Source: a virus
Taxonomy: Duplodnaviria; Heunggongvirae; Uroviricota; Caudoviricetes
DNA length: 64,000 nt
IMG/VR virus record: IMGVR_UViG_2529292828_000009
Reading direction: 5' to 3' (one strand)
Shown here: piece after piece, positions 41,665-62,363 of the stretch
How the letters are laid out: the number at the start of each line of letters is the position of its first letter
Numbering within the stretch: the first letter of the stretch is position 1
Notes under the pieces: generated by a model
Database searches by the model: none
What the model saw: only the letters and a program-made list of their open reading frames with translations
Told to the model about the DNA's origin: nothing
Translations under genes and position numbers: made by a program

Positions 41665-41728
41665 CGCTTCAGGGCCCCGGTAAAGGGGCCTTGCTATCAA
41701 TTTGTCATTTCAATTACGCGAAATTTAT

Positions 41729-42709
41729 ATGAACGCAATAATATCGCCCGATTATTACTATGTTCTTACCGTTGCTGGTCAGTCTAATGCCATGGCGTAT
41801 GGCGAAGGACTGCCATTACCGGACAGGGAAGATGCGCCTCATCCCAGAATTAAACAATTAGCGAGATTTGCGCATACGCATCCCGGAGGCCCGTCATGTC
41901 ACTTTAACGACATTATTCCACTGACTCACTGCCCACACGATGTTCAGGATATGCAGGGTTATCACCATCCTCTGGCAACGAATCATCAAACACAGTACGG
42001 CACCGTTGGCCAGGCACTGCATATTGCACGGAAATTACTACCCTTTATTCCTGATAATGCAGGGGTTCTCATCGTTCCATGTTGCCGTGGCGGATCGGCT
42101 TTTACCGCGGGCAGCGAAGGGACATATTCAGAACGGCACGGAGCCAGCCATGATGCTTGTCGTTGGGGAACGGATACTCCGCTGTACCAGGATTTAGTCA
42201 GCAGAACGCGAGCCGCACTGGCAAAAAATCCGCAGAACAAATTCCTCGGCGTATGCTGGATGCAAGGCGAATTTGACTTAATGACCAGTGACTACGCGTC
42301 ACACCCTCAACACTTTAATCATATGGTTGAAGCCTTTCGTAGGGATCTAAAACAATACCATTCTCAGCTTAATAATATTACTGACGCGCCGTGGTTTTGC
42401 GGCGATACCACCTGGTACTGGAAAGAAAATTTCCCGCATTCGTATGAAGCTATTTATGGCAATTATCAAAATAATGTTTTAGCCAATATTATTTTCGTCG
42501 ACTTCCAGCAACAAGGTGAAAGAGGACTGACGAACGCGCCTGATGAAGACCCGGACGATTTAAGCACGGGATATTACGGTTCAGCGTACCGGTCACCGGA
42601 GAACTGGACGACGGCACTGCGAAGCAGTCATTTCAGCACGGCAGCCCGTCGGGGGGTTATTTCTGACAGGTTTGTAGAAGCAATTTTGCAGTTTTGGCGT
42701 GAAAAGTGA
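41729..42709 (+). CDS. nanS: 9-O-acetyl-N-acetylneuraminate esterase NanS
   Basis: Start at internal Met MNAIISPDYYY; SGNH-like GQSNA motif; operon order. Confidence 0.9.
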   Translation: MNAIISPDYYYVLTVAGQSNAMAYGEGLPLPDREDAPHPRIKQLARFAHTHPGGPSCHFNDIIPLTHCPHDVQDMQGYHHPLATNHQTQYGTVGQALHIARKLLPFIPDNAGVLIVPCCRGGSAFTAGSEGTYSERHGASHDACRWGTDTPLYQDLVSRTRAALAKNPQNKFLGVCWMQGEFDLMTSDYASHPQHFNHMVEAFRRDLKQYHSQLNNITDAPWFCGDTTWYWKENFPHSYEAIYGNYQNNVLANIIFVDFQQQGERGLTNAPDEDPDDLSTGYYGSAYRSPENWTTALRSSHFSTAARRGVISDRFVEAILQFWREK

Positions 42710-42716
42710 GCGTTCA

Positions 42717-43367
42717 TTAATTTGATTTATTCGCATCCATCAACGCTTTTAACTCCTCCGGCGTAAAAGGTGGTTTGCGTCGGTGCAACATCGCATGGCA
42801 ATTAGGACACACAGGAAGCAAATCATTAACTGGATCCAGCAGGTAATCCTCTTTAACGGCTGAAAGCGGCACCAGGTGATGCATATGGATAAAGCCCTCA
42901 GCGATATCGCCATAGATCTTCACCAGATCAACGCCGCATACGTTGCACTGGCATCCGTGATATTCGACTGCTTTCTCGCGAGCTTTTTTATCGCGTTCAT
43001 AGCGGTTTACCGTCACCTTTATCGCCGCACCTTCAACGTAGGTCCCCTGCGACGGCAACTCATCCGGGAACAGAACATCGGCTATGGGAGCCGCAGCGGC
43101 TTTATCCTGATGAATATGAAATCCCTGATCTATAAGTAGTTTGACGCATTTAGATTTTATTCCGCCGGTGAAATCCGCAGGGGTAAATTGCGTCCCCGTC
43201 ATCAATGTCGCTGCGATGCCAGCAATCGCCTTCGAGGGGTAACGTCGGCCATGATATTCAATTTCATACAACCGTGCAGGCTGGAACTGATGAGTTTCTC
43301 CCGCATCCCATAAATGAATAGCTTCGATGATATACCGCCGCGGAAGATGATCGGGGAGTTTATTCAT
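42717..43367 (-). CDS. HNH endonuclease family protein with uncharacterised N-terminal domain (possible restriction/defence nuclease)
   Basis: C-terminal CQCNVCG...HMHHLVP...CPNCHAMLH zinc-finger HNH motif. Confidence 0.6.
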   Translation of the reverse strand: MNKLPDHLPRRYIIEAIHLWDAGETHQFQPARLYEIEYHGRRYPSKAIAGIAATLMTGTQFTPADFTGGIKSKCVKLLIDQGFHIHQDKAAAAPIADVLFPDELPSQGTYVEGAAIKVTVNRYERDKKAREKAVEYHGCQCNVCGVDLVKIYGDIAEGFIHMHHLVPLSAVKEDYLLDPVNDLLPVCPNCHAMLHRRKPPFTPEELKALMDANKSN

Positions 43368-43446
43368 AGAGAATGTCCTTATACGTTCTCAGAACAAGCA
43401 GCAAAAAAACAAATGAGATCAAAGTAATATATCTTCACTTGCAGGC

Positions 43447-43689
43447 TTGAACAGCAGAAAATTTGCGAGCATGATCGCAATTATTTCACTGCCAGGGATA
43501 TCAATGGCTTCCAGTAAATCGCTACAGCAGGCAATTGCCAATATAAAAATCTGGCATAAGGGTGAACAGCGCGCACCGCATAAACCATTGTTATTGCTAT
43601 ACGTATTAGCGGGATACCTGAATGGACATCCACGCCTTTTCGATTATTGTAGTGGAACAGTCTACGAGGATGCAGTTCGAAGTGAGTAA
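43447..43689 (+). CDS. Hypothetical small protein, possibly a gene fragment
   Basis: 80 aa ORF, no strong motif. Confidence 0.25.
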   Translation: MNSRKFASMIAIISLPGISMASSKSLQQAIANIKIWHKGEQRAPHKPLLLLYVLAGYLNGHPRLFDYCSGTVYEDAVRSE

Positions 43690-44131: not shown

Positions 44132-44167
44132 ATGGTGCGAAGGTGCGAAGGTGCGAAGGCCGGACTC
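44132..44167 (-). repeat. Degenerate att-type direct repeat (tRNA 3'-end-like) with three tandem GGTGCGAA octamers
   Basis: TGGTGCGAAGGTGCGAAGGTGCGAAGGCCGGACTCG; last part matches the repeat at 55785..55808. Confidence 0.5.
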
Positions 44168-44519
44168 GCATATTCATTTAAATTGTTGTAAAAAATGGAT
44201 TTTATTAATAATTAATTCAATTATGCCCCCTTTTGTGCCCCCTCCATTCGCTGTTCACATTTTGATTTTTGTTGATTATTTATCCAAAAATTATCGAAGA
44301 AATAGTCAATCCAGTTAGGTTCCGTTAAACGGATCCAAACCGGGACTTGACTCAACAAAAAATACTTTTTTTTCGCAAAACCATGCACACTATTCACTCT
44401 GCAACTTTTAATTTATATATCAATTGGTTATGTATTAACAGTTAGGTGAAGAGTGAACTGCTATCTCTACATTCGTACGTTTCCAATAAGAAACCCGGCA
44501 TCAGCCGGGTTAGTTGTAA

Positions 44520-46844
44520 TTATTTGATTGTTAGCTCATCACACTTGGGAAGCCAGTCTGCATTACTTTCCTCTTTTAAAGTGAGGTTAGTCTGCATTCC
44601 CTGATTAGTTCGCCGCTTCTCATAATTTAGCCCGTATTCCTTCAGCATAACTGGTAGCCCTTTGCCAAACATTGTCAGGCTAAGGGTATTTTTAAAGCCA
44701 TTAGCCTCCATGTATACGAGATAGGCATGGTAAAGGTACGTACGTGGCTGGCGCGGGACAATATTGGCGTTCCCCATAAACATGCCGTTGGTGTCAGGTA
44801 ATGCCTCAAGGTAGCCACAAAAATCAAATGCTGGATCAGCATCACGCTTGATGGTGAGAGCCTCATCAGAATTCTGCTGCGACTGAAGCAATGTTCTGGC
44901 GCTCATCGGATCGCTGAAACGCTGCATGAGCTGACGAACAATCACAGCCAGTTCTCGTGCAATTTTATCTTTCAACTGCGGATCGCGTTCTTCCGGTGCT
45001 ATCTGCTCAGGAAAATGCAGAATAACTCTCCTGCGGGACACACCACCACTGCGATCAGTGAAGCGCATAGGATTATTATTTACGGCCAAGATAACCGCCG
45101 GAATATGTGTTGAATAAGCATTCTGATATTTGGGGTCCACAGATACTGCATCGCCACCAGTTATAGCCTTAAGCCCGGCGCCGTCGCCGCTCCACTTCTC
45201 CTGATCAGGCAGGCGAATAAGAGAAAAACCTATCAGAGCCGCACGTTCTCGCGGGGACTCCAGCGTTTCAATGGTCGCAGAGGTGGCGTTATCCTCTCCA
45301 GCAAGCATGGTCGCAATTTCAGCCAGAATACTTTTGCCACTTCCACCAGGGCCAGTCACTTCCAGAAAGAGCTGCCAGTCATAACGGTTCGCCAGCACCA
45401 TAAATAACGCTGCAAGAATAATGTCGCGTTTTGCTGGCTTGTGTCCGGCGGCCCGGTCCAACCAACGCCAGAATGCCGGGGCATGAGTTTCAAGCGTTTC
45501 CCCCTTTACCGGTGGCGTGAAATCGACTTCACACAGGGTACGCAGCCAGTTCTCTTTACAGTGCGGACTAAAAAGCCCTGTTCGCGTATCGAGAACGCCA
45601 TTACGAAAACCAATCAGATGACGTGACGGATTTTGCTGCTGCGGAACAATTAACTTTAATGTTTCCACCAGTGAGGCAATTTTTCCTGAGGAAAACGGTG
45701 CCCCGAGGCGCTGGAAAAGGGCTGCGACATCTCGGGCAAAATCTGACTGAGAAATAACTTTCCACGCTCCAGACTCGTAGCGGGATAAAAGCTGCCCGTT
45801 CGGATCAACCGCCAGTGCATCCCTGTAATGCTCCCGAACCCTCTGAGCTTTTTCGCTGACACTCATCGCTGTGAATTCTGCTTCACTCATTGTGTCGAAA
45901 GGACTGGCGTTATGTGGCTTCAAAGCCTCAAGAATTGCCTTCCGGGTGGATTCCTCTCCGTATTGGGTAAGCGCATCATTCCAGTCACCAAAAACCGGTG
46001 GCAGCACAATGTCACACTGACTCGCTTTTGCAGCAGTTTCAGCCCTGTTCTGGCCTGAACCATTCAGATCGCGGTCCGCTGCAATAATTAACTGATATCC
46101 AGGATACTTATTATGGGCAACGCTGCTCAGAGAAAGAAAGTTGACCGACGAAAATGCCACCATGACGGCTTCTCCTGTCAAATAATGAATGGTAAGCGCC
46201 GTGGCGTAACCTTCCGTAATCCAAATCCTTCTTACAGAACTCCCGCCCCCTTCTATCAGATGATAGGCCTCCTTAACCTGACCTCCTTTAAGAAAACACT
46301 TGCTACCATTGCTACTGATAAGCTGAATATTCACCAGCTCCCCGTCAGCGTTATAGAGTGGGACGATCAAATCACCGGGGCGGAACATCACACCACCGGC
46401 CTTATGAGCTGAAGTCAGCTCATGGCAAATATGCTCCGGGAAACCTTTATGTGTAAGATAAGTGTTTCCGGCAGATTCACGCGAGGCTTGCAGCAGTCGC
46501 GCGGCAAGTGCTGCCGCTGCATCTTTCCCGCTATCGGTATCGGCGGTTAACGTCCTGACCTCGGAATTAACTATAGACAGATCATGTGTCAGTCCATGTA
46601 TCCTGTCAGCTGCTTCACTGATATCCACATTCAGTGCCCTGGTGACAAGCGCTAAACCATCCCCGGCTCCGCACTGATTGCAGAACCATGTTCCGCGTCC
46701 TTCCTGATCGTCGAAGCGAAAACGATCTTTACCGCCACAGACCGGGCAAGGCTGATGGCGATTTTTCAATATATTCACGCCCAGCGCTGGCAGAATCTGA
46801 GCCCAGTGACCGCGGGCAGCCTTCACGGCCTGACTGACTTTCAT
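44520..46844 (-). CDS. P4 alpha-like primase-helicase (start at internal Met)
   Basis: Zinc-binding CPVCGGKD...CNQCG N-terminus, central primase region, C-terminal Walker A GPGGSGKS. Confidence 0.85.
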   Translation of the reverse strand: MKVSQAVKAARGHWAQILPALGVNILKNRHQPCPVCGGKDRFRFDDQEGRGTWFCNQCGAGDGLALVTRALNVDISEAADRIHGLTHDLSIVNSEVRTLTADTDSGKDAAAALAARLLQASRESAGNTYLTHKGFPEHICHELTSAHKAGGVMFRPGDLIVPLYNADGELVNIQLISSNGSKCFLKGGQVKEAYHLIEGGGSSVRRIWITEGYATALTIHYLTGEAVMVAFSSVNFLSLSSVAHNKYPGYQLIIAADRDLNGSGQNRAETAAKASQCDIVLPPVFGDWNDALTQYGEESTRKAILEALKPHNASPFDTMSEAEFTAMSVSEKAQRVREHYRDALAVDPNGQLLSRYESGAWKVISQSDFARDVAALFQRLGAPFSSGKIASLVETLKLIVPQQQNPSRHLIGFRNGVLDTRTGLFSPHCKENWLRTLCEVDFTPPVKGETLETHAPAFWRWLDRAAGHKPAKRDIILAALFMVLANRYDWQLFLEVTGPGGSGKSILAEIATMLAGEDNATSATIETLESPRERAALIGFSLIRLPDQEKWSGDGAGLKAITGGDAVSVDPKYQNAYSTHIPAVILAVNNNPMRFTDRSGGVSRRRVILHFPEQIAPEERDPQLKDKIARELAVIVRQLMQRFSDPMSARTLLQSQQNSDEALTIKRDADPAFDFCGYLEALPDTNGMFMGNANIVPRQPRTYLYHAYLVYMEANGFKNTLSLTMFGKGLPVMLKEYGLNYEKRRTNQGMQTNLTLKEESNADWLPKCDELTIK

Positions 46845-46867
46845 TCCTGACATGACGCAGTTCTCCC

Positions 46868-47191
46868 TCAGTGTAAAACCGGCTTTTTGATGTGACGGAC
46901 GCATAACTCATCCATTACGGCTATTCCGAGCTGGGAGAGTGCGGGACAGGACATTAGAGGGCCGTATTCCATCAGGTCTGAAAGCAGGGCGCAGGCGATT
47001 TCCATGCCTTTTGTTTGCCCGTGCTGTCGCAGATAAAATCCTTCAAGCTCACGGGCAATAGCGGTTTCAATTTCATCCAGAGTGAGCTGCAGATGGCGGT
47101 TTTGCTGATAGCAGGCACTCAACCAGGCGCAGGCTACCGCGCGGCGATACAACGCTACCCGAAGTGAAAGGGAAAGAGTGCGTGATTTCAT
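46868..47191 (-). CDS. Hypothetical protein of the P4-like left operon
   Basis: 107 aa ORF directly upstream of alpha. Confidence 0.4.
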
Positions 47192-47412
47192 TGCACCACC
47201 TCCATGTTCATGAGGTCATCCTGGCAACGCTGTACCACGCCATCAAGCTGCTCTGTCATCAGATAAATCAGGGAAACCAGTTGTTCACATTGAGCACTGG
47301 CAGGTTTTTCGTAGCAATCCTGAAGAACAGCCATTCCAGTGACAAACTCTCCCACGTTACGAAGATGCTTCAGGCGGAGAATATCGTCATAAGAGATTGC
47401 GGCGTGATTCAT
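47188..47412 (-). CDS. Hypothetical small protein (position equivalent to P4 epsilon; start at internal Met)
   Basis: ORF between immunity region and alpha operon. Confidence 0.35.
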
Positions 47413-47599
47413 TAGATCACCTCCCGGACAGGCAGGCGAGCAGCAAGACAAAGCACATACTCATGGACCAGTGAAAGACGTGCATGATGCTCATTGCTGG
47501 CGATGATACGCAGCATACTGATACGTGGTTTACGTTCTGCACGACGAACGGCGGCAAAAACAAATATAAATTGAGGATGTGACGGGGCGAGGATCGTAG

Positions 47600-47870
47600 C
47601 CATAAGGGCAACCTCCAATAAGTAGCGGTAAATGCCACCACCGGAGTTCCTACGCTCATGGGTGGTGACCCGAACGGGGGTAGGAATACCGGCCTTATTG
47701 GAAACCGGCCAGCCCGAAGGCTGCCCCGCCCGGACCACCATTATCTGAAAGGGGCTAAGGTATAAGCACCGCAGCCCGAAAAATGGGTGTGCCTGAGCAA
47801 CGACGTAAAAAAAGACGCACGGCGCGTCTGGTGTCGCCAATAAGTAACTCGGGTTCCTACGCCCGGCAGC
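47600..47870 (-). ncRNA. Candidate P4-type CI-like immunity RNA region
   Basis: Two direct copies of CCAATAAGTA...GGNGTTCCTACGC (~47615-47655, ~47837-47862) flank a complementary segment GGGGGTAGGAATACCGGCCTTATTGG (~47676-47702); hairpin + T-run on minus strand at ~47796-47828. Confidence 0.4.
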
Positions 47871-47956
47871 CGATTTTGCGGCAGCGGGAAAACTATACCT
47901 GGAAAAGATATCAGGACGCAAGCCAGAAAAAAGGAGATGAGACTGCAAAGCAAGTT

Positions 47957-48217
47957 TCACGCATGGCCTCCTTGCTCGCGGGCAGCAATTCGCGCCGCCA
48001 TCCATGCACTGACCTCCGACTGTACCCAGGCCACATTTTTTCCACCCAGGGATATCTGCTGCGGGAAGGCATCGCGGCTGATAAGGTCGTAGATGGTTGA
48101 ACGGGATAGCCCGCAAAGGTGCATCACTTCAGGTAATCGTATGAAGCGCTCCTGCTGAGCCGGAACCGGGAGCACCGGAGCAGCTGGTGCCGGGGTGGAA
48201 ACGGAAATACTATTCAT
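47957..48217 (-). CDS. AlpA-family transcriptional regulator
   Basis: 86 aa; [23 protein letters not shown] typical of AlpA. Confidence 0.8.
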
Positions 48218-48860
48218 CTGGCTACCTCTCTAATATGTTTACAACAGTCCGGGCAATTCCATGCGGATTCAGGTAGCTCCTTATTATGTTTATATAAGCG
48301 GCTCGCGCATGCTTTATTTATTTTGTGTGAAATGTTGATTTCTCAAAAAATAAAACAGCTAAAAACCGTATGAAACGAACAAAAACAAACAATTCCTTTA
48401 TGGAATATAATAAGGAGCATCAATAATAAAAAAGTCTATTACACTAGGCAGGATCACAGCTCAAATCTGAACCAGCCCATATCATTCAGGGCTTTACATC
48501 ATAAGCACTAAGACAACACCTGATTAATAAAAGAGCCAAAAACGGCCAAAAATAAACAGCTCACCATATGTATCAATAAATCCGATGATTAAAGAAATTA
48601 AATTACCATCTTACTTCCGCATGTATCCGAATGTGTTTAATGAACATCAGACAAATTCATTTTTATGAATATTTTCCTGAAATGCAACTGAGTGCAGGGA
48701 GGTTGAATGTTCAATTATTAAACAGATATAAGACATCTTTTATTCTTTACATAGAATATGTATTGAATACTGGTGAATATTGGTGAGGAGAAAAGATCCA
48801 GTAATAAACTGAAATAAATATCGCGACTTATATGAAAAAGAAATATATGTTTAATTTTAT

Positions 48861-48970
48861 CTCTGTGAACAGTCATGAACAGTAGATGATCACTTTAATT
48901 AAAACACTACACCACTTAACCACATGTATTTACTATATTTTTATTGAAGTGAACAGTAGTGAATAGTATG
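48861..48970. repeat. Cluster of GTGAACAG-like octamer repeats (candidate alpha-binding iterons)
   Basis: gtgaacag / atgaacag / gtgaacag / gtgaatag within ~110 bp of AT-rich intergenic DNA. Confidence 0.35.
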
Positions 48971-49122
48971 TATTAAAGGAAGCGTGTAGATCAGACATGA
49001 CACCTTTCTCTGGCTAGCCAGAACAAGGTCATTGTTCAGTCACTGACACAATCCTCCTCGGTAGTGCGCTTGTATGGACCCCGGCACAATTGACACAACA
49101 ACAAAACACTACCGGAGCAGCC

Positions 49123-49875
49123 ATGACAACTGTTAACCAGATCTCTGATGCAAACATTACCCCCACCCTCCCGCCGAAAATTCGCGAAGCGGTGGAAAAA
49201 GTTAAGGCAGCAAAAGCTGTCTGGCAGGAAGAACGGCGAAAACAAACCGAAGCTGCTGCAATGACTGAAACTATCCGTAAACGTCAGGAAGATACAAAAA
49301 CGGAGACGCAGGCGCTTAATGATGAATGGCGAAACCTGTTTCGTGAGAATCAGGGGAATATGACGCCACGAATGAAAAAACTGCGGGCAGAAATCGCCCT
49401 CGGACGCGAAACACTAGATGAGTTCGAAGATTTGCTGGCTGCTCAGGCTGCAGAAAATGAATTCCTGCCATGGAAAACTGCGGATGCTGCAAACCGCTAC
49501 ATCAGCGAACATAATCACCTGATTGAAACTCATGCAGTGTGGCTCTGGAATGAGTTTATGAAGGAACACGGCCAGAAACTTATTCAGATCCTTGGACTGC
49601 TGAAAATGACTCTGGGCCGAAGCGCATCTTCTGTTATCGGTGTAGTTCATACCGTAAACGACCCCGAAAGTGTGCTGAAGCAATTTATCAGCGAGCAACT
49701 CACCACTCCGGCACTGTTCTGTAACGTATCTTCAACGGATGATATTGCCCTGCCGGGGATCAGCATTTATGCGGACGATAAAGCCATACAGGATGCCAGA
49801 CAATCACCCAGCCCTGCAGCACGTTCCCGGATGCTTAAACAGCGTGACATGGCTAAAGGGGGCGAGAAGGAATGA
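49123..49875 (+). CDS. Sid-like capsid size-determination protein (putative)
   Basis: Coiled-coil-rich ORF directly upstream of psu; GGAG RBS before internal ATG. Confidence 0.5.
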   Translation: MTTVNQISDANITPTLPPKIREAVEKVKAAKAVWQEERRKQTEAAAMTETIRKRQEDTKTETQALNDEWRNLFRENQGNMTPRMKKLRAEIALGRETLDEFEDLLAAQAAENEFLPWKTADAANRYISEHNHLIETHAVWLWNEFMKEHGQKLIQILGLLKMTLGRSASSVIGVVHTVNDPESVLKQFISEQLTTPALFCNVSSTDDIALPGISIYADDKAIQDARQSPSPAARSRMLKQRDMAKGGEKE

Positions 49876-50426
49876 ATACCGGAACCATTACTCAGGAAGC
49901 TCTCAACGATTACCGCGCGGCAATAAAAAGCTGGCTGACACTACGTAATGTGCAAAGTACCAGCCAGCTTCGTCTGGCTGCTTTGCTGGATACTGAAGAA
50001 AAACCCGCAGCATATGCCAGCCAACTTGAGGATCTTCGTGAGCGTCTTGCACTCCTCGAATGGCAGATTAACTGTGCCGCCCGGGATGGTCTTTATGCTC
50101 ACCAGATTGTGCTGGAAAGCTGTGTTACAAGCGCAACTGAAAACTTCATGAGCGAGCATGGTGATGCACTCACTGACGCTCTGGCTCCTTTTCTTTGTGC
50201 ACCATACGGGCTTGAGGCGGCAATGAAAATATTACGAACCGCTGTAGCCCGACAAACGGAAGTCCGTACTCCGGTAATTTCAGCAGCATATAAGAGCATT
50301 ATCGACGAAACCGGATTAACGGTGGATGCATCAATGCGCGCTGATGCTTCAGCCAGTTTCACCCCGGCACAACATAAAGTTTTCCTGGCCCGCCTTAACC
50401 GACTTAATGAAAAAGGAGTGTGCTGA
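49872..50426 (+). CDS. psu: Polarity suppression protein Psu
   Basis: 184 aa; segments resemble P4 Psu as recalled (FTPAQ..., HGxAL..ALAP). Confidence 0.75.
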   Translation: MNTGTITQEALNDYRAAIKSWLTLRNVQSTSQLRLAALLDTEEKPAAYASQLEDLRERLALLEWQINCAARDGLYAHQIVLESCVTSATENFMSEHGDALTDALAPFLCAPYGLEAAMKILRTAVARQTEVRTPVISAAYKSIIDETGLTVDASMRADASASFTPAQHKVFLARLNRLNEKGVC

Positions 50427-50427
50427 T

Positions 50428-50700
50428 ATGGCCCTGAAGTGTCCTGAATGTGGCGCGGTCGCTCACGCCAGAACCAGCGCCTATGAAGCTCCGTCGGTTA
50501 AACGCTCATGGTATCAGTGCCAGAATCTGGAATGTTCCTGCACATTTACCGCACTGGAAAGCGTGGATACGATAATTATGAAGCCTCGGTGCAATGAACA
50601 GGAATCAGACAAAGCAAAAATACCGGAAAAACAACAGCAAACTCTCAATCGCTATGGCTCCGCGTCAAAGCTGTCAAACCGTCAGCAAATTCCTGTCTGA
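50428..50700 (+). CDS. Ogr/Delta-family zinc-finger late transcription activator
   Basis: CPECGAVAHARTS...YQCQNLECSCTF pattern as in P2 Ogr. Confidence 0.8.
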   Translation: MALKCPECGAVAHARTSAYEAPSVKRSWYQCQNLECSCTFTALESVDTIIMKPRCNEQESDKAKIPEKQQQTLNRYGSASKLSNRQQIPV

Positions 50701-50723
50701 TTAGCAAAATACGACCACGAAGT

Positions 50724-50747
50724 CCCGGTCCAGTACCGGGATTTTTT
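50724..50747 (+). terminator. Rho-independent terminator after delta
   Basis: CCCGGT-loop-ACCGGG hairpin followed by T-run. Confidence 0.5.
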
Positions 50748-50791
50748 ACGCCTTTTCCCTGGCTGGCCTGAGAGCGTATGAGTGCATATCT

Positions 50792-50830
50792 ATGGCGCAT
50801 GAAAACGCATGAGTCTCATGCGCCATTTTT
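50792..50830 (+). terminator. Second hairpin + T-run
   Basis: 11-bp stem ATGGCGCATGA/TCATGCGCCAT followed by TTTTT. Confidence 0.4.
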
Positions 50831-51306
50831 GACGCGAAAGCCCTTGTGTGGTGGCTTCTGAGACGATTTACGGGGTGCATGAAAACCAGTCTGTTAAGCG
50901 AAGCTGGCAGGCGGGCGGGGCTGCTCGCGCTAAGGGAGAAAATAGCAAACTCAGCCGCGCAGGCGGTGACAATGATTGACGAGATACTGGCTGGCAGTTG
51001 CTGAAATCTCCGCAATGATTCAAGAACTGCAGTGTATCGATGCAGCACACGTAAACTGAGCGGCGCTACGGGTAATATTTATAGATTTGTCATCCTTAGT
51101 GAGCATGGTTCTCACTCTTGTAACCTCTACCTGTACAAGATATCGTAAGACCTCAGATCAAACATGCACGTGTATTAAAGGTGGGCAAGCGTGGCGGGAA
51201 GATAATTGTGCGCACTGTAGTCAAAGATAGGGATTGTGATTACTTTTTCTTCCAGCCGTGGTGTAGTAAATTATTGGGAACAAACTCTTAATGACATCAA
51301 TGGATA

Positions 51307-52605
51307 ATGATTATGACTACAAATCCGGACGGATACATCTCATTTTTAAAACCCGGTAGTAACGACTGGAAAGCATTAGATAGTAAATCGTTTATTTATT
51401 GGCGAGACTACATAACGAATGAAAGTTTAGAAGAGTCAGGAGATTCTATTTCTCCAGCACAATCTCTTACTGATGGTGAAAAGAAGGAGTTGAAAGACAA
51501 TCAGGCATATATAAACGAACTATTACTAAAATCATTACAATTCCCAAATCTTGCATTCTTCGCTGGGAGTGGTACTTCGCTTGGGGACGTTGGAGGACCA
51601 AGCATGTGGGATCTCTGGAAGTGTGCAATGTGGAGTGAATCTTCTATAAACGAGGATGGTCAATTAAAACCTGATGCTCAAATTGTTTGTGATAAAGTAA
51701 AATATAAAGAGCGAGAGTATCCTAACATAGAACACTTTCTTTCTAATTGTGAAGCATATTTAGCATTTCATGATGATGAAGAAGTGTTGAATTTTTTAAA
51801 TAAAGTTAAAACAATTATTTTAGACAAATGTCGCTCATTTATTGATGATGGCAACTGTGATCTTTCAGCTTACATCAATTTATTACAAAAAATGGGGAGG
51901 AGGAGAGTCAGAGATCCTAGACTAAAAGTTTTCACAACTAACTATGATTTAGCCTTTGAAACAGCTGCTTCTGAATTAGGAATGATGGTAGTTGATGGTC
52001 TTTCATATACAGGAGTTCGCAGATTCGATGGTAAATATTTTAACTACGATGTTGTTAAAAGAGATGAAAACGAGCATGAGTTTGTAGAGGGCGTATTCCA
52101 GTTATTTAAACTCCACGGTTCTGTAAGTTGGATAAGAAAGGATGGGCAAATATATGAATCCAGCCAACCAACAGCAACAAACGCATGTCTAATATATCCA
52201 GCGAAAGGTAAATATCAGCAAGCCTTTATTCAACCTCACTTAGAATTACTTTCAAGATTGTTAGATTTCTTGAGAAAAAGAAATAACTGTTTAGTTATAT
52301 CTGGATTTGGTTTCAATGATGACCATCTTTCTGAACCAATTTACTCAGCAATAAAATCCAATCCAAGCATGAGGTTGATTATAGTAGATTTCAAATGTGC
52401 AACTCATATTCGGAATAAAGGGGGGGACGGTTCTAGTAAATATTGGGATTTACTAAAACAACTCTCACTATCAGGTTATGACATTCACTTCATAAATGCA
52501 TCTTTCAGTGATTTTGTTAAATTAGTTCCCAATCTTAAAGCATTAACCCCAGCAGAACAGTTGGCTAAGGTAATAAAACAAGTAGGAGTTAACAATCAAT
52601 TATGA
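51307..52605 (+). CDS. SIR2-like NADase domain protein (candidate anti-phage effector)
   Basis: Motifs FFAGSGTS...GPSMW, TTNYD and KLHGS resemble SIR2-family NAD-binding/catalytic motifs. Confidence 0.75.
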   Translation: MIMTTNPDGYISFLKPGSNDWKALDSKSFIYWRDYITNESLEESGDSISPAQSLTDGEKKELKDNQAYINELLLKSLQFPNLAFFAGSGTSLGDVGGPSMWDLWKCAMWSESSINEDGQLKPDAQIVCDKVKYKEREYPNIEHFLSNCEAYLAFHDDEEVLNFLNKVKTIILDKCRSFIDDGNCDLSAYINLLQKMGRRRVRDPRLKVFTTNYDLAFETAASELGMMVVDGLSYTGVRRFDGKYFNYDVVKRDENEHEFVEGVFQLFKLHGSVSWIRKDGQIYESSQPTATNACLIYPAKGKYQQAFIQPHLELLSRLLDFLRKRNNCLVISGFGFNDDHLSEPIYSAIKSNPSMRLIIVDFKCATHIRNKGGDGSSKYWDLLKQLSLSGYDIHFINASFSDFVKLVPNLKALTPAEQLAKVIKQVGVNNQL

Positions 52606-54323
52606 TTAATACAACACTACAGCTTGGTATTTTGAGGGGCGACCTTAAGGTTGGAGTAGTCTCATCAATTTTTGCTCAAACAGTTAGAGCAAATTTAATC
52701 TATGCAGGGGAACTCAGCGGAACATATATAGAAGGTTGTAGATATGGAAAAGGAGAAGTTGGTGAAATATTATTAATAGAAGGACAACAATCTATTGTTC
52801 TTGGCCGTTTAATAGAGGTTAAATTACCAGAGCGAGATAGAGGTGAAATATCTGTCGGGTCTCAAGGAAACTTCAAAGTTGATGCTATCGGCATTATACA
52901 ACTTCTTGGAACTATTGATCCTTCAAATTTTAGAATTGATTCAGGAATCAAATCATATCCTCGATTAGGAGATCGAGTTTATTCTGCTCCCTTAGATTTT
53001 ATTTCTTTAATACCAGAATTAATTAATAAAGGAATTAAAGATAACGAGGAAGAAAGAATAGGTATTGTATTAGGCATTATATCTGGAGGGGCAACAAGTA
53101 TAGTAACTGTTGAACCTGATAAACTCTTCGGTCGTCATTGTGCTATCTTAGGAGCTACAGGCGGTGGAAAAAGTTGGACAACTTCCAAGTTAATTGAAGA
53201 GTGTTCGAATTACGAAAACTCTAAAACTATAATAATTGATGCAACCAGTGAGTATAGATCGTTTAAATCTGATTATTGTTTACATTACCATTTAGGTGCC
53301 CCAATAAATAAAAACATAAATTCTTTAGAATTTAGAATTCCACCTACCGACTTTGTTGAGTCAGACTTTATTGCCATGTTCGATCCTTCTGGAAAAGTAC
53401 AGGGTCCTAAGCTAAAAGAAGCGATAAAAAGCCTTAGATTAGTAGCTTTAGAACCTAGAATAGCAACCGATGGTATTTTAAAAAAAATCAATCAACCTAA
53501 AACAGATTATCGACGCGCAATGAATACTGGAGACAACTCTAAACTTGTTGATAATCCATCACAACCATTTGATATAACAAAACTTATAAAACAGATTGTA
53601 CAAGAATGTTGTTACGATAATGGAGATAATACTTGGGGAAACGCTGCAACTCAAGACTTAAGCTATTGCTCATCTTTGTTAACCAGAATTCAAGCAGTAA
53701 CGTATGCCAACTCGTTAAGGTCTGTTTTTAATAGTAACGAGGATATATCCACACTAGGTGAAATATTAGAAACTTTTTTACAATCTGATAAACGAGTCCT
53801 AAGGTTATGCCTAAGTGATGTTAGCTATGAGTTTTATGCTAGAGAAATTTTAGCCAATGTAATCGGCAGAAAACTTTTAACTTTAGCTAGGCTTGAAAAA
53901 TTCAGAACAAGACCGCTGTTAGTTATTGTTGATGAAGCCCATAACTTCCTTGGCAAACGGGTTGGTTCTGAAGATCATGCAATTAAACTTGACGCTTTTG
54001 AGATGATTGCAAAAGAAGGCAGGAAATATGGCCTTAATATATGCTTAACAACTCAAAGACCCAGAGATATCACTGAAGGTGTGCTTAGTCAAATTGGAAC
54101 CTTATTGGTTCATCGCTTAACAAACGACCGAGATCGAGAAGTCGTTGAGCGTGCATGCGGTGAAATTGATAAATCTGCAGCATCTTTTCTACCAAGTCTC
54201 AAACAAGGTGAAGTTGCTCTTGTAGGGGTTGACTTCCCTATTCCTATGACCATCCAGATAGATAAGCCAATATATCCACCAGAATCTGATTCTCCAGGCT
54301 ATTGCAATATATGGAAAAAATAA
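52602..54323 (+). CDS. HerA/FtsK-like ATPase (partner of SIR2-like protein)
   Basis: Walker A GATGGGKS, Walker B LLVIVDEAHNF; start overlaps upstream stop (ATGA). Confidence 0.75.
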   Translation: MINTTLQLGILRGDLKVGVVSSIFAQTVRANLIYAGELSGTYIEGCRYGKGEVGEILLIEGQQSIVLGRLIEVKLPERDRGEISVGSQGNFKVDAIGIIQLLGTIDPSNFRIDSGIKSYPRLGDRVYSAPLDFISLIPELINKGIKDNEEERIGIVLGIISGGATSIVTVEPDKLFGRHCAILGATGGGKSWTTSKLIEECSNYENSKTIIIDATSEYRSFKSDYCLHYHLGAPINKNINSLEFRIPPTDFVESDFIAMFDPSGKVQGPKLKEAIKSLRLVALEPRIATDGILKKINQPKTDYRRAMNTGDNSKLVDNPSQPFDITKLIKQIVQECCYDNGDNTWGNAATQDLSYCSSLLTRIQAVTYANSLRSVFNSNEDISTLGEILETFLQSDKRVLRLCLSDVSYEFYAREILANVIGRKLLTLARLEKFRTRPLLVIVDEAHNFLGKRVGSEDHAIKLDAFEMIAKEGRKYGLNICLTTQRPRDITEGVLSQIGTLLVHRLTNDRDREVVERACGEIDKSAASFLPSLKQGEVALVGVDFPIPMTIQIDKPIYPPESDSPGYCNIWKK

Positions 54324-54326
54324 TTA

Positions 54327-54346
54327 GTAGGGTCTTTGACCCTACT
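54327..54346. terminator. Bidirectional hairpin terminator between convergent HerA-like gene and int
   Basis: GTAGGGTC-TTTG-GACCCTAC with T-rich flanks on both strands. Confidence 0.45.
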
Positions 54347-54361
54347 TTAAAATTTTTAAAG

Positions 54362-55633
54362 CTAGATAGTTTTTTTTGCAAAGTCGTAGGGGGTTATATA
54401 TTCCTGAGTGTTAGCATCAAGATAATCGGCCCACCACTGAACCATTAAACGACGCTCATCCAAATGCTCTGAAGTATGAATATAAGCAGCCCTAACGCTA
54501 TTACGCTCAGAGTGGCTTAGCTGACGTTCTATCGCGTCATCACTCCACAACCCTGATTCGCCCAAAGCACCGCGCGCCATAGTTCTGAATCCATGCCCGC
54601 AAACTTCGGTTTTTGTGTCATACCCCATTGTGCGCAAAGCACTGTTAACCGTGTTTTCACTCATAACTTTAGTTGCGTCATGATCTCCCGGAAACAGTAG
54701 CTCTTTATCACCACTAATCTGCTTAAGCTGCTCTAACAAAATCATCGCCTGCCGACTAAGCGGAACGATATGCTCCTCTTTCATCTTCATCCCACGGTAC
54801 GAGTAACGGACACCTTTAATTTCTTCTCGTTTTGCCGGTATACGCCAAAGAGATTTATCGAAGTCGAATTCATCCCAGCGAGCGAAACGCAACTCACTGG
54901 AACGCACAAAAGTTAGTAAGGAAAGCTCGACTGCAATCCGTGTCATTAAACGGCCACGATATGCAGCAAGACGTGCAAGAAACTCAGGGAAACGGTTAGA
55001 GGGTAAAGCTGGATAGTGTCGTGCTTTGGTTGTCGATAAAGCACCAGCCATATCACTGGCTGGGTTTGAGTCGATATAATCGTTCTGTACGGCATAACGC
55101 ATAATAGCTGTAACACGCTGCTGAAGACGCTGCGCGACGTCATGCTTACCACTGGCATCAACTTTTTTAATCGGGGCTAACAGGTGGCTTGTTTTAAGCT
55201 GGCGGATATCGGACGATCCGATATGAGGGAAGATATAAAGCTCAAGATAGCGAAGAACGCGCGCTCTATGGTCTTCACTCCAGCGCTTGTTACTGGCATG
55301 CCATTCACGAGCGATCGTTTCGAAAGTATATGCCCCCGATTTCTCGGCCTGAGCCGCTTTCTGCTCGGCTTTTGGATCAATACCCTGCACTAATAATCTT
55401 TTAGCTTCATCACGTTTTGCCCTTGCCTGGGCAAGTGTCACAGTAGGCCAAACGCCAAAAGCGAGGCGATCCTCTTTTTTGTCTGAAGGGCGTCTGTATT
55501 TCATACGCCAGTATTTAGATCCCTTGGCCGAAACCTCAAGATACAAACCGCCACCATCGGCCATTTTGTAGGTTTTGTCTTTTGGCTTTGCGGTCTCGAC
55601 CAGTCTGGCGTTGAGCTTCATTTGGGGGCACAT
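54362..55633 (-). CDS. P4-type tyrosine integrase
   Basis: 423 aa; C-terminal R...H..R...Y catalytic pattern; adjacent to att repeat. Confidence 0.9.
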   Translation of the reverse strand: MCPQMKLNARLVETAKPKDKTYKMADGGGLYLEVSAKGSKYWRMKYRRPSDKKEDRLAFGVWPTVTLAQARAKRDEAKRLLVQGIDPKAEQKAAQAEKSGAYTFETIAREWHASNKRWSEDHRARVLRYLELYIFPHIGSSDIRQLKTSHLLAPIKKVDASGKHDVAQRLQQRVTAIMRYAVQNDYIDSNPASDMAGALSTTKARHYPALPSNRFPEFLARLAAYRGRLMTRIAVELSLLTFVRSSELRFARWDEFDFDKSLWRIPAKREEIKGVRYSYRGMKMKEEHIVPLSRQAMILLEQLKQISGDKELLFPGDHDATKVMSENTVNSALRTMGYDTKTEVCGHGFRTMARGALGESGLWSDDAIERQLSHSERNSVRAAYIHTSEHLDERRLMVQWWADYLDANTQEYITPYDFAKKTI

Positions 55634-55784
55634 TTCTAATCGAAGTCAAGATGCCCCTAATTATGCCCCCAATGGCATCCGGATTTCAACGGACAATCTC
55701 GGACGACTCCGGACATAAGAATCACTGTACTCATTGAATTATAAGGAACAATTGGACTTTCTCGGATGATCTTGGAAGTGCTAA

Positions 55785-55808
55785 TGGTGCCGAAGGCCGG
55801 ACTCGAAC
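55785..55808 (-). repeat. att repeat: 24-nt copy of a tRNA 3' end (tRNA-Leu-like), not an intact tRNA
   Basis: TGGTGCCGAAGGCCGGACTCGAAC is the reverse complement of ...GTTCGAGTCCGGCCTTCGGCACCA; sequence beyond it does not continue as a tRNA. Confidence 0.7.
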
Positions 55809-56155
55809 ATCGCAACTATCCTTATGATCTTTAGTAATTAAAGCAATCTACATTGTCGATGATACCATCATTGATACCATCAGACCCGATTGATGATAAT
55901 CGAACAGTAATAAAATATGACTAAACAATTTATGCTTCAACATAAGATTGAATGCTTTGATCTACCATTTTAATGCAGTGGAAAAATTTTTAACACAATA
56001 CTTAAGAAAAATAATTTCATATAAAAACTACATTTCATTTCATATAGTTAACACACCAAAAACAACTGTATATAAACCCAGTAAAAAATGGTAGAATCAC
56101 TATTGTGTTCAATTGTTGAACATTTATAATACATTTGTCGGATAGGGGGGTGTTT

Positions 56156-56743
56156 ATGCAAAGGAACACATACAACAAAGTAGGTCTATACATCCTATCT
56201 TTAGCTATGCTTTTTGTTTTTATTATTATCCTGACTGCCAAAATCCCCTTTTGCTTCACTTCGGATTGTAGCTTCATAGGTTTGAAGAGACTTGTATTAA
56301 CAAATATTGTTCCTATTGTTTGCTTTGTATTTTTTCTATTTAGTATTTATTTTTATAATAGATTAAAAAACATAACAAAATACAATGGACAAGATAGCGT
56401 TAAAATAACATCATGTCAAAGCGAAAGCTATGAAAGTTTAACATTCTTAGCAACATACATTGTACCTTTTATGGGGTTTAGTTTTGAAGACATGCAAAAG
56501 AATATAGCATATCTTTTGCTTGTAGTAGTAATAGGCATTATTTTTATTAAAACAGACAAGTATTATGCGAATCCAACTTTAGCTCTGTTTGGCTTTAAAC
56601 TATACAGGGTAAATATACTACACCCAGGAAGTGGAGAAACAAAAAATCTGATAGCTATTTCAAATGATGTATTAAAAGTGGACGATAATGTTTATTATAG
56701 TTTCTTTGATGAATTTGTTTTTATAGCAAGGAAAAAAATATGA
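56156..56743 (+). CDS. Four-TM membrane protein, KwaA-like (putative Kiwa component)
   Basis: Four hydrophobic helices; GGGGGG RBS before ATG; ATGA overlap with downstream gene. Confidence 0.45.
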   Translation: MQRNTYNKVGLYILSLAMLFVFIIILTAKIPFCFTSDCSFIGLKRLVLTNIVPIVCFVFFLFSIYFYNRLKNITKYNGQDSVKITSCQSESYESLTFLATYIVPFMGFSFEDMQKNIAYLLLVVVIGIIFIKTDKYYANPTLALFGFKLYRVNILHPGSGETKNLIAISNDVLKVDDNVYYSFFDEFVFIARKKI

Positions 56744-57687
56744 CTACTCAGCAGTTAAAAGAAAAAATTTCAAAAATAATTGATAACTTTAGCGGAATCA
56801 GGGTTGTATTTACTACTACTGCTAATGAACTAAAGCTTTCCAGAATTGAAGGGAGTGCATTAAATAGCATAGCTGAAGGGTTTATTGACAAAATCAAAGA
56901 AGACATTATAAATAATGAAGATCTCACCTCACCATTGCTGTCCAATTTTGATGATAGAAAAAATGCCTTGTTTAAATTTGATTACGAACAATATCCTGAA
57001 GAATTTAACAAAATCACTCAGGCCATCGCTATCCCTCCTAACTCACAAGATTATTATAACCCTTTAAATAAATTCACAGATGTGAAAGGAATTATAATTT
57101 TAATAAGTGGAGATAACAAATGCCTGGCTCTTTATAAAAACAAAACTAACCTTGCAGTATTGAGAAATAGCAGAAAAATGTTTAATTTAGTCCCTGACCC
57201 TGATGGATACTTGAAACAACTCCCTAATGAGATATTACGGTTAGATTTCAATTATGATCTATTATCAATTGGTGAGGATTTTTACATTAAAAATCACAAG
57301 ACTCTTGAAACTCAAATGAAATTTCATCAAGTGATTGAAGCCCAGGCAGTTATTGCTTTAAATTCTTTACGGGATTCACTACTAATTGAAGACATATCAG
57401 GTTTAGAAAAGAGTTCGAGAGAAATTTCATTCGCTAGAAAGTTGGCAAAAATCTCCAAACATTCTCCTGTTTTGGGGAAAATAGATACTAAAACAATTAT
57501 CGATTATGTATCCCAACATAAATATTTATCTGCAATACTTCAGATTAATGAAGCAGGAAATAAGTTATTAATTAAAACCAAGACATCACAGAAGCATTTC
57601 ATTAAACTCATGAGCGATGATTATTTACAATCAGATCTAACTAAAATAATATACATGAGCATAGCAAAAGACAGATTAGATGAATAG
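56740..57687 (+). CDS. Soluble ~315 aa protein, KwaB-like (putative Kiwa component)
   Basis: Size and operon architecture match Kiwa; no motif verified. Confidence 0.4.
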   Translation: MTTQQLKEKISKIIDNFSGIRVVFTTTANELKLSRIEGSALNSIAEGFIDKIKEDIINNEDLTSPLLSNFDDRKNALFKFDYEQYPEEFNKITQAIAIPPNSQDYYNPLNKFTDVKGIIILISGDNKCLALYKNKTNLAVLRNSRKMFNLVPDPDGYLKQLPNEILRLDFNYDLLSIGEDFYIKNHKTLETQMKFHQVIEAQAVIALNSLRDSLLIEDISGLEKSSREISFARKLAKISKHSPVLGKIDTKTIIDYVSQHKYLSAILQINEAGNKLLIKTKTSQKHFIKLMSDDYLQSDLTKIIYMSIAKDRLDE

Positions 57688-57700
57688 AATTTTAAGTAGA

Positions 57701-57745
57701 AGTGACAAATATTATAAACCATTCTTGAAATATATTTGTCACTAT
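57701..57745. terminator. Inverted repeat between convergent genes (bidirectional terminator candidate)
   Basis: GTGACAAATAT ... ATATTTGTCAC. Confidence 0.35.
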
Positions 57746-57751
57746 TACTAA

Positions 57752-58423: not shown

Positions 58424-58475
58424 ATTGATTTACCTCTATTTATAATAGTAAAAGAGGGGTCCCCCCCCCTCTTTT

Positions 58476-61754: not shown

Positions 61755-62363
61755 CGTTACATCTCTATGTTACATAGCAAATTTCTTATAATTTTACCAC
61801 ATTTCAATAAATATTTCATCATGTTTGTTTGGTATTATCCATACACTTGAGAAAAGTTAATTTCACAATTAAGCAAGGGCTAACTCTCCGAAGCTCCGCT
61901 TCTTATAGTTCCCCTTGATTTTCTTTCTTTCAGTCAGAAAATACAGACATTTCATCATGAAAATTGATAATTTATTTTTAGTATTAAAGTATTATCTCAC
62001 CTTATCGCCGAACCGATTTGAGATTTAGTGCAACTATAAGTATAGTTCCCCTGACAAATAGCTTTCTTATTTAAGTAACGGTTAAACGATAGGGCCTCAC
62101 TACTGGTGCCAATCATGCCATACTCTCAAATGCTACCCCTGCAGACAGGGCTCTACTACCGTAAAGCTGGCATAAAGTATTATAGTTACCTCTCTTAAAA
62201 GGAATTTCTAACTCATGTACCAGATCTACATGAGTTCTACATCCCCCTGATGAACTTAGCAGTGATAGCTAACCGATACTGAAGTGTACTGCTGAGTGAT
62301 TTGACAAATAGAAAATATTAAGCTATAACAGTTGTATCCTACAGGATACAACATGAGAGCATT

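What the first reader, a model, noticed from the sequence alone, without database searches (positions are those of the whole stretch)
42717..43367. HNH nuclease with unknown N-terminal domain wedged between nanS and the island boundary
A 216 aa protein, convergent with nanS and only 8 bp from its stop, carries a complete zinc-finger HNH motif preceded by a ~120 aa domain I cannot assign. Small HNH enzymes with a DNA-recognition domain are often Type IV (modification-dependent) restriction enzymes. Its location at the edge of an integration hotspot supports an accessory defence role.
Basis: inference. Interest (0 to 1): 0.45.

Follow-up and report, generated by a model that had tools for sequence, protein, structure and literature searches.

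The report
Uncharacterised "head"-domain HNH restriction-like nuclease
This is a real, selectively maintained accessory E. coli gene for a small HNH nuclease; its N-terminal part is the "head" domain of the Streptomyces enzyme ScoMcrA, whose function nobody knows, so it is most likely an untested modification-dependent restriction enzyme.

Summary
ORF 42717-43367 (-) encodes 216 aa, is convergent with nanS (7 nt between the stop codons), and has a complete zinc-finger HNH motif.

- **Domain partners:** elsewhere the head domain is fused to HNH, EVE, SRA, DUF3427, NOV_C and McrB-like AAA_5 domains. The same HNH subtype is fused to EVE, DUF3427 and DpnI-type winged-helix sensors.
- **Neighbours:** homologues sit in defence islands and, where examined, have no dedicated methyltransferase.
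- **Distribution:** the gene is accessory. It is full-length in 1239 of 5426 complete E. coli genomes, reduced to a 106-bp stub in most of about 1450 others, and absent from K-12. It is under purifying selection (dN/dS 0.13).
- **Partner gene:** it lies head-to-head with an EcoWI-like phosphorothioate-dependent SBD-HNH gene, which is truncated in this window. 326 genomes carry both at full length.

A Type IV-like role is plausible but unproven, and the target modification is unknown.

The parts
42717..43367 (-). Complete gene for the 216-aa head-HNH protein (PGAP: 'HNH endonuclease', WP_001037963.1 in strain D6)
   Evidence: ORF listing. 100% identical in NZ_CP010148.1. 2581 homologues. dN/dS 0.13.
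43098..43367 (-). Residues 1-90: ScoMcrA_N 'head' domain (PF26345), alpha-beta-beta-alpha-alpha-beta fold. Conserved signature: H26, F28, Y34, R41-R42-Y43-P44-x-K46-A47, G50, A52, F66, G68-G69, S72-K73-C74.
42993..43097 (-). Residues 91-125: low-confidence flexible linker. Its C-terminal half (FPDE..EG..VNRYERD) is conserved together with the HNH module.
   Evidence: pLDDT 45-72. The same segment is conserved in HNH proteins with other N-terminal domains.
42720..42992 (-). Residues 126-216: zinc-finger HNH (beta-beta-alpha-Me) nuclease domain. CxxC at 141/144 and 187/190; H164, N189, H195.
43368..43503 (.). 136-bp divergent intergenic region between the head-HNH gene and the EcoWI-like remnant. 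Holds the AAGGA ribosome-binding site of the HNH gene (43376-43380, minus strand).
   Evidence: Read from the sequence. No strong sigma-70 consensus was found on the minus strand.
43504..43667 (+). 5' remnant (~55 codons) of an EcoWI-like phosphorothioate-dependent SBD-HNH restriction gene. Homology to the intact gene ends at 43667.
   Evidence: NCBIfam NF045808 positions 2-45, E 1.7e-16. Intact 290-aa gene in strains RSHH22 and BE2-5. Breakpoint mapped by BLAST. PGAP marks it as a pseudogene.
41702..42709 (+). nanS (sialate O-acetylesterase), the last conserved gene before the variable region. Context only.
   Evidence: Pfam SASA. The match to K-12 ends at window 42712.
44154..44173 (.). leuX-3' att repeat marking the near end of the 11.6-kb P4-like satellite. 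Its partner repeat is at 55791-55810.
   Evidence: Direct repeat CGAAGGCCGGACTCG. Satellite genes annotated in strain D6.

Best explanation
The gene encodes a stand-alone accessory defence nuclease built like a modification-dependent (Type IV-like) restriction enzyme.

The proposed mechanism has three parts:
- The ~90-aa ScoMcrA-type head domain is proposed to act as the DNA-targeting or sensor module.
- A flexible ~35-aa linker tethers it to the catalytic domain.
- A Zn-finger HNH domain cuts or nicks nearby DNA, probably as a dimer, as in EcoKMcrA, TagI and ScoMcrA.

The host is Dam+ and normally Dcm+ and has no partner methyltransferase for this gene. The target should therefore be a DNA feature absent from E. 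coli's own genome, such as a foreign base or backbone modification.

Shown here: the gene is real and intact, the catalytic residues are present, the domain identities are established, the gene is accessory and under purifying selection, and it sits in defence-island contexts. Inferred only: that the head domain binds DNA, that cleavage depends on a modification, and which modification.
For: 1. **Intact catalytic module.** The catalytic and Zn ligands are invariant in 71 homologues, and the fold matches the HNH domains of ScoMcrA, EcoKMcrA and TagI.
2. **Head-domain partners.** A head-only phmmer search found 598 cluster representatives at E<=1e-3. Of the 79 listed hits of 250 aa or more, 41 carry HNH, 19 HNH_2, 16 EVE, 6 NOV_C, 4 DUF3427, 3 SRA and 3 McrB-like AAA_5. 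Examples are head-SRA-HNH, head-EVE-HNH and Mrr_N-head-EVE-AAA_5.
3. **HNH-module partners.** The same HNH subtype (50-57% identical) is fused in other phyla to EVE, DUF3427, DpnI_C winged-helix, AlbA_2 and DUF4268.
4. **Possible DNA-contacting surface.** Seven basic positions (R10, R41, R42, K46, K73, K/R76, K88) and an H26/Y34/Y43/S72/C74 cluster are conserved across 263 head domains. Their arrangement in space was not examined.
5. **Context.** In the 10 homologue neighbourhoods read with gene and domain tables, only Citrobacter has an adjacent (dnd-associated) methyltransferase. Neighbours are an EcoWI-like PT-dependent REase, McrBC, type I RM, Kiwa, GmrSD_N, a helicase-PLD protein and an ICE.
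6. **Accessory but maintained.** It is full-length in 1239 of 5426 genomes. In most of about 1450 others a 583-bp microhomology deletion leaves a 106-bp stub, and K-12 lacks it. dN/dS is 0.13.
7. **Partial defence-model matches.** PADLOC's only sub-1e-4 hits are the two Type IV models, each matching one domain.
Against: - No activity has been shown for the head domain. In ScoMcrA it is flexibly attached, is not among the three domains described as making the dimer contacts, and was described as of unknown function.
- The domain is only mildly basic (median pI 8.1).
- In many proteins the head accompanies an established reader (SRA, EVE or SBD). It could therefore be an auxiliary module rather than a sensor.
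- No paper in the searchable library reports a head-HNH enzyme.
- No promoter was identified.
Confidence: 0.55

Rival explanations
1. It is one half of a two-gene module with the divergently transcribed EcoWI-like SBD-HNH enzyme. In this reading the head-HNH protein takes part in phosphorothioate-related restriction, for example by covering another PT context or cooperating in double-strand cleavage.
For: - Head and SBD are fused in one polypeptide in ScoMcrA.
- The divergent pair recurs in E. coli (326 genomes with both at full length), Shigella, Klebsiella sp. R390 and K. aerogenes.
- A 58%-identical paralogue on an E. coli ICE has an SBD-HNH gene 4 kb away.
- In Citrobacter freundii the gene lies next to a dnd_rel_methyl / DndA / dnd_assoc_4 / DndD-like cluster.
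Against: - Each gene is kept without the other in many genomes: roughly 900 have only the HNH gene and roughly 1450 have only the EcoWI-like gene.
- EcoWI works alone in vitro and in vivo (PMC7461809).
- Homologues in Pantoea, Shewanella, Enterobacter and several metagenomic lineages have no PT gene nearby, and an SBD HMM found none in the 13 head-containing loci apart from Shigella and Klebsiella sp. R390.
- Head and SBD profiles are unrelated (hhalign probability 0.25%).
- Co-location in defence islands is common without any functional coupling.
Confidence: 0.12
2. It is a defence or stress nuclease that does not depend on DNA modification. The head domain would be a generic DNA-binding, structure-specific or protein-sensing module, and the HNH domain would act as a regulated (for example abortive-infection) effector.
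For: - The head domain has no known ligand.
- It often accompanies bona fide readers, as an accessory module would.
- The structural neighbours of the HNH domain include the effector nuclease Cap5.
- In three head-containing proteins the partners are STAND/AAA NTPases.
Against: - A constitutively encoded nuclease with no immunity gene or regulatory partner in any of the 10 neighbourhoods read with gene tables would be hard to keep harmless unless its substrate is non-self DNA.
- The identical position of the head relative to the same HNH subtype is occupied by EVE, DUF3427 or DpnI_C readers in other proteins.
Confidence: 0.2
3. It is a decaying relic of an old leuX island with no current function.
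For: - Its neighbour is a pseudogene in this window.
- About 1450 genomes have only partial matches, mostly a 106-bp stub.
- Truncated variants exist (P0005, P0060), and the Shigella copy is frameshifted.
Against: - dN/dS is 0.13 with dS 0.175 between allele groups.
- All catalytic and zinc ligands are intact.
- There is a good ribosome-binding site.
- 1239 genomes have a full-length copy.
- Orthologues at 45-70% identity occur across Enterobacterales and beyond.
Confidence: 0.05

Closest known systems
ScoMcrA (Sco4631, PDB 5ZMM), the Streptomyces coelicolor Type IV PT- and 5mC/5hmC-dependent endonuclease
   Different: ScoMcrA is about 560 aa long. Its SBD (sulfur-binding) and SRA (5mC/5hmC) reader domains lie between head and HNH, and its specificity is attributed to them. 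Both are absent here. The head domain is the one part of ScoMcrA with no assigned function.
EcoKMcrA (E. coli K-12 e14 McrA, PDB 6GHC)
   Same: It is a small two-domain Type IV enzyme with a C-terminal Zn-finger HNH. The HNH domains align (E 1.4e-3, residues 123-198 against 199-269). Some databases name homologues 'McrA' for this reason.
   Different: Its N-terminal NEco 5mC/5hmC-binding domain is unrelated. No sequence match was found, and no structural match appears among the hits listed for the head-domain model. The two genes are at different loci: the e14 prophage versus the nanS-leuX flank.
EcoWI and other SBD-HNH phosphorothioate-dependent endonucleases (NF045808; PMC7461809)
   Same: Similar size and overall design (reader domain plus HNH). 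It is the physical neighbour and is divergently transcribed. Both are accessory and occur as presence/absence variants at the same locus.
   Different: The HNH subfamily is different (HNH_2, PF13391, against PF01844). The NF045808 score is 14 bits against a cutoff of 180.
PUA-superfamily reader-HNH enzymes (SRA-HNH TagI/ScoA3IV; EVE-HNH VcaM4I/TspA15I) and wH-HNH 6mA-dependent enzymes
   Same: They have the same modular logic. The HNH subtype found here is fused to EVE, DUF3427 and DpnI_C domains in other bacteria, and the head itself is fused N-terminally to SRA-HNH and EVE-HNH proteins.

Membership tests
HNH (beta-beta-alpha-Me) zinc-finger nucleases, Pfam PF01844 | Two CxxC zinc-binding pairs flanking the catalytic His...Asn...His | tested here: met
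   C141/C144, C187/C190, H164, N189 and H195 are invariant in 71 sequences. Pfam HNH covers residues 141-197 at 20.6 bits, 0.8 below the cutoff; homologues score 30-36 bits.
HNH (beta-beta-alpha-Me) zinc-finger nucleases, Pfam PF01844 | beta-beta-alpha-metal fold | tested here: met
ScoMcrA_N head-domain proteins (Pfam PF26345) | Sequence and fold match to the ScoMcrA head domain (5ZMM residues ~29-93) | tested here: met
Type IV / modification-dependent restriction endonucleases | Nuclease domain fused to a separate DNA-modification reader domain | tested here: inconclusive
   The nuclease domain is present. The second domain (head) is found almost only in restriction-type architectures, but no reader activity is known for it.
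Type IV / modification-dependent restriction endonucleases | No cognate protective methyltransferase; solitary gene in variable or defence regions | tested here: met
   There is no methyltransferase next to the gene in the E. coli, Klebsiella, Pantoea, Shewanella and Enterobacter contexts examined. Type I RM systems nearby are complete in their own right. One caveat: in Citrobacter a dnd-associated methyltransferase gene is adjacent.
Type IV / modification-dependent restriction endonucleases | Cleavage requires modified DNA | not testable with these tools
   This needs biochemistry or phage/plasmid restriction assays.
ScoMcrA-type / EcoWI-type phosphorothioate-dependent REases (NF045808; SBD PF26340) | Sulfur-binding domain (KPxxLL ... 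YP ... PF-L-W motifs) | tested here: not met
   NF045808 scores 14.3 bits against a cutoff of 180. An SBD HMM gives no hit in this protein or in the 269 proteins retrieved. hhalign of head against SBD gives probability 0.25%.
EcoKMcrA orthologues | NEco N-terminal 5mC/5hmC-binding domain | tested here: not met
Phage cos/terminase-associated or homing HNH endonucleases | Encoded in phage genomes next to terminase, or inside introns/inteins | tested here: not met
   No phage record covers 80% or more of the protein, and the 8 weak hits do not include the head domain. There are no terminase or intron features nearby.

The most novel reading that the evidence does not exclude
The ScoMcrA 'head' domain is itself a previously unrecognised reader of a DNA modification. 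That would make head-HNH proteins a new specificity class of Type IV restriction enzymes that current defence finders overlook. These proteins number 2581 90%-identity clusters matching the full-length protein, and 598 50%-identity representatives carry the head domain.

The repeated linkage to SBD-HNH and dnd genes, and the fusion with SBD in ScoMcrA, leave open that the ligand is a backbone (phosphorothioate-type) or other non-canonical modification complementary to EcoWI's GpsAAC/GpsTTC specificity.
Probability: 0.3. Interest if true: 0.65.

Novelty: new variant of a known kind. Interest (0 to 1): 0.36.

Why it matters
If the head domain is a DNA-modification sensor, a structurally solved but functionally blank domain would gain a function. 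That would also help explain why ScoMcrA carries three non-catalytic domains.

A widespread enterobacterial nuclease would be added to the Type IV repertoire. PADLOC's Type IV models match it only in part, one domain each.

Such enzymes are also useful reagents for mapping DNA modifications, as EcoWI is for phosphorothioates.

The locus itself is a compact natural experiment. Two divergent restriction-type nuclease genes occur as both, either or neither across 5426 genomes. Those patterns could be mined against the modification systems each strain carries.

If the protein is only a generic nuclease, the finding is ordinary.

Tried and rejected
- **Head as a miniature or degenerate sulfur-binding domain: rejected.** I suspected this from a shared Y-P-x-x-A motif. 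hhalign of head against SBD gives probability 0.25%. The SBD profile was built from only 4 sequences, so sensitivity was limited.
- **McrA orthologue: rejected.** Only the HNH domain aligns.
- **Phage or homing HNH: rejected**.
- **Plasmid-borne gene: largely rejected.** Only 5 plasmid records cover most of the protein, and three of them are 1.2-5.4 Mb, so probably mislabelled chromosomes.
- **AlphaFold-database fold search:** the afdb50 library was unavailable.
- **Local Pfam scan:** the local Pfam scans never reported PF26345 or PF26340, so those names come from precomputed tables.
- **Promoter scan of the intergenic region:** nothing usable on the minus strand.
- **Literature:** searches for any characterised head-HNH enzyme, PF26345, or the WP accessions found nothing.

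Full report
**1. The observation**

The window matches E. coli strain D6 (NZ_CP010148.1) at 99.98-100% identity from window 33000 to 55808. ORF 42717..43367 (-) encodes 216 aa from an ATG, with an AAGGA ribosome-binding site 8 nt upstream (read). It is convergent with nanS (41702..42709), and 7 nt separate the two stop codons. PGAP calls it 'HNH endonuclease'.

The zinc-finger HNH motif is complete. C141/C144, C187/C190, H163/H164, N189, H191 and H195 are invariant in an alignment of 71 homologues.

**2. What the N-terminal domain is**

- **Sequence.** Local Pfam finds only HNH. A search of PDB sequences aligns residues 24-87 with residues 29-93 of ScoMcrA (5ZMM). It aligns residues 123-198 with the HNH domain of EcoKMcrA.
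- **Domain name.** Precomputed annotations of homologues name the domain PF26345, ScoMcrA_N.
- **Full-length model.** AlphaFold2 on the 71-sequence alignment gives a confident N-terminal domain, with block-mean pLDDT of about 80-96 over residues 1-90. Its topology is alpha-beta-beta-alpha-alpha-beta. A low-confidence linker covers residues 92-125, and the HNH domain is again confident.
- **Domain-only model.** It has pLDDT 84 and pTM 0.78.

So the domain is not SRA, EVE or PUA. It is the 'head' domain, which the ScoMcrA structure paper describes as small, flexibly attached and of unknown function. That paper lists SBD, SRA and HNH, but not the head, as the domains contributing the dimer contacts (PMC6224610). 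I found no later paper that assigns it a function.

**3. What the domain keeps company with**

A head-only phmmer search of 1.84 billion cluster representatives gives 598 hits at E<=1e-3. Protein lengths among the 150 listed run from about 50 to 1567 aa (the shortest are fragments), and the head domain is either N-terminal or internal.

Of the 79 listed hits of 250 aa or more, Pfam finds these partners:

| Partner domain | Proteins |
|---|---|
| HNH | 41 |
| HNH_2 | 19 |
| EVE | 16 |
| NOV_C | 6 |
| DUF3427 | 4 |
| SRA | 3 |
| McrB-type AAA_5 | 3 |

Individual architectures include head-SRA-HNH, head-SRA-HNH-NUDIX, head-EVE-HNH and Mrr_N-head-EVE-AAA_5.

The converse also holds. The HNH subtype of this protein is 50-57% identical to modules fused in other phyla to EVE, DUF3427, DpnI_C winged-helix, AlbA_2 or DUF4268 domains.

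Both halves therefore belong to the domain set used by modification-dependent restriction enzymes. In this protein the head is the only non-catalytic domain.

Across 263 head domains, seven basic positions and an H26/Y34/Y43/S72/C74 cluster are conserved. That is compatible with a nucleic-acid-binding surface, but it does not prove one.

**4. The locus and its population genetics**

Homology to K-12 stops at window 42712, 3 nt past the nanS stop codon, so the gene lies wholly in variable DNA.

Upstream and divergent from it, 43504-43667 is the first ~55 codons of an EcoWI-like gene. It matches NF045808, 'phosphorothioated DNA-binding restriction endonuclease'.

The intact 290-aa gene (33.2 kDa; EcoWI is reported as 33.4 kDa) is present in strains RSHH22 and BE2-5. 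EcoWI is a characterised GpsAAC/GpsTTC-dependent enzyme (PMC7461809).

Counts among 5426 complete E. coli genomes:

| Locus state | Genomes |
|---|---|
| Any trace of the HNH gene | 2691 |
| HNH gene at full length | 1239 |
| Partial HNH match, mostly the 3' 106-bp stub | about 1450 |
| Both genes at full length | 326 |

The stub results from a 583-bp deletion between short imperfect repeats. Full length is judged by coverage; reading frames were not checked for each genome.

In BE2-5 the order is nanS, head-HNH, EcoWI-like, McrC, McrB. The two main HNH allele groups differ at dS 0.175 and dN 0.022, giving dN/dS 0.13, so the protein is under purifying selection.

**5. Other lineages**

- **Divergent pair conserved:** the head-HNH / SBD-HNH pair recurs in Klebsiella sp. 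R390 and K. aerogenes.
- **ICE paralogue:** a 58%-identical paralogue on an E. coli ICE has an SBD-HNH gene 4 kb away.
- **Citrobacter freundii:** the gene sits at the same leuX flank next to a dnd_rel_methyl / DndA / dnd_assoc_4 / DndD-like cluster.
- **No phosphorothioate link:** in Pantoea, Shewanella, Enterobacter and several metagenomic lineages the neighbours are type I RM, Kiwa, GmrSD_N, McrBC or a helicase-PLD protein.
- **Phages and plasmids:** the full protein is absent from 50,697 phage records and rare on plasmids.

**6. Interpretation**

The best-supported reading (about 0.55) is a stand-alone, accessory, Type IV-like nuclease with the head domain as its targeting module.

The steps actually shown are:
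- gene integrity;
- catalytic residues;
- domain identities;
- accessory status;
- purifying selection;
- context.

DNA binding by the head, dependence on a modification, and the identity of the target are all inferred.

The phosphorothioate connection is suggestive. It rests on the fusion in ScoMcrA, four lineages with the adjacent pair (E. coli, Shigella, two Klebsiella), one ICE and one dnd neighbour. However, each gene persists alone in roughly 900 to 1450 genomes, EcoWI functions alone, and the head and SBD profiles are unrelated. I rate a joint two-gene system at about 0.12.

A regulated nuclease that does not depend on modification (about 0.2) and a decaying relic (about 0.05) remain as alternatives.

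**7. Novelty and score**

The kind is known: a reader domain plus an HNH nuclease acting as a restriction enzyme. The architecture is also catalogued in Pfam. What is new is that the only candidate reader is a domain with no known function, in a widespread but apparently untested protein family. I therefore class it as a new variant of a known kind, of moderate interest (0.36). If the head domain proves to be a new modification sensor, interest would rise to about 0.65.

Noticed in passing
window 43504-43689 (+): Truncated 5' remnant of an EcoWI-like phosphorothioate-dependent SBD-HNH restriction gene. Across E. coli genomes this gene and the head-HNH gene occur as both, either or neither: 326 genomes have both at full length, and about 1450 have a partial HNH match, mostly the 106-bp stub, which in the genomes inspected lies beside an intact EcoWI-like gene.
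   Followed up: yes
window 44154-55810: An 11.6-kb P4-like satellite prophage bounded by leuX-3' att repeats (CGAAGGCCGGACTCG at 44154-44173 and 55791-55810). It carries primase-helicase (44520-46904), Icd-like, capsid-assembly (annotated as 'phage capsid assembly protein'), psu and delta genes. A SIR2-family protein plus ATP-binding protein pair sits in its cargo hotspot, and the integrase lies next to the att site.
   Followed up: partly
window 55809-64000: The window departs from the strain D6 record inside leuX. A second island follows in tandem, carrying Kiwa (KwaA/KwaB) and an Eco57I-type RM methylase. It matches only 38 of 5426 complete E. coli genomes, none over 80% of its length. ARAGORN finds no intact tRNA anywhere in the window.
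   Followed up: partly
window 41702-42709 (+): PGAP annotates nanS as a partial pseudogene ('missing C-terminus') in D6 and several other strains. The ORF is nevertheless intact here (335 aa from TTG, 326 aa from the internal ATG) and matches the SASA esterase family. This looks like an annotation artefact. PGAP also calls a 29-aa 'hypothetical protein' antisense to the nanS 3' end (window 42628-42717).
   Followed up: no
L092/L093 (Citrobacter freundii), 8115-14651: At the same leuX flank, a head-HNH orthologue (56% identical) lies next to a phosphorothioation-type cluster. The cluster holds dnd_rel_methyl (TIGR04096), a DndA-like desulfurase, dnd_assoc_4, a DndD-like ATPase, an Sp-CxC protein and an SNF2 helicase.
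   Followed up: partly
L085-L088 (E. coli ICE at the ahr/leuX flank): A second E. coli paralogue of head-HNH (58% identical; indexed in 1030 blocks of the contig collection, 565 contigs) is carried on an integrative conjugative element with TraI_2, TraG_N and ArdC. An AbiEi-like gene and an SBD-HNH gene lie in the same element.
   Followed up: partly
hits H80/H81 (E. coli O157:H7): In O157:H7 strains the EcoWI-like gene abuts nanM directly, so nanS and the head-HNH gene appear to have been deleted together. K-12 and BL21 carry a separate ~250-bp fragment annotated as a phosphorothioated-DNA-binding restriction endonuclease, 88% identical, whose location relative to nanS was not determined.
   Followed up: no
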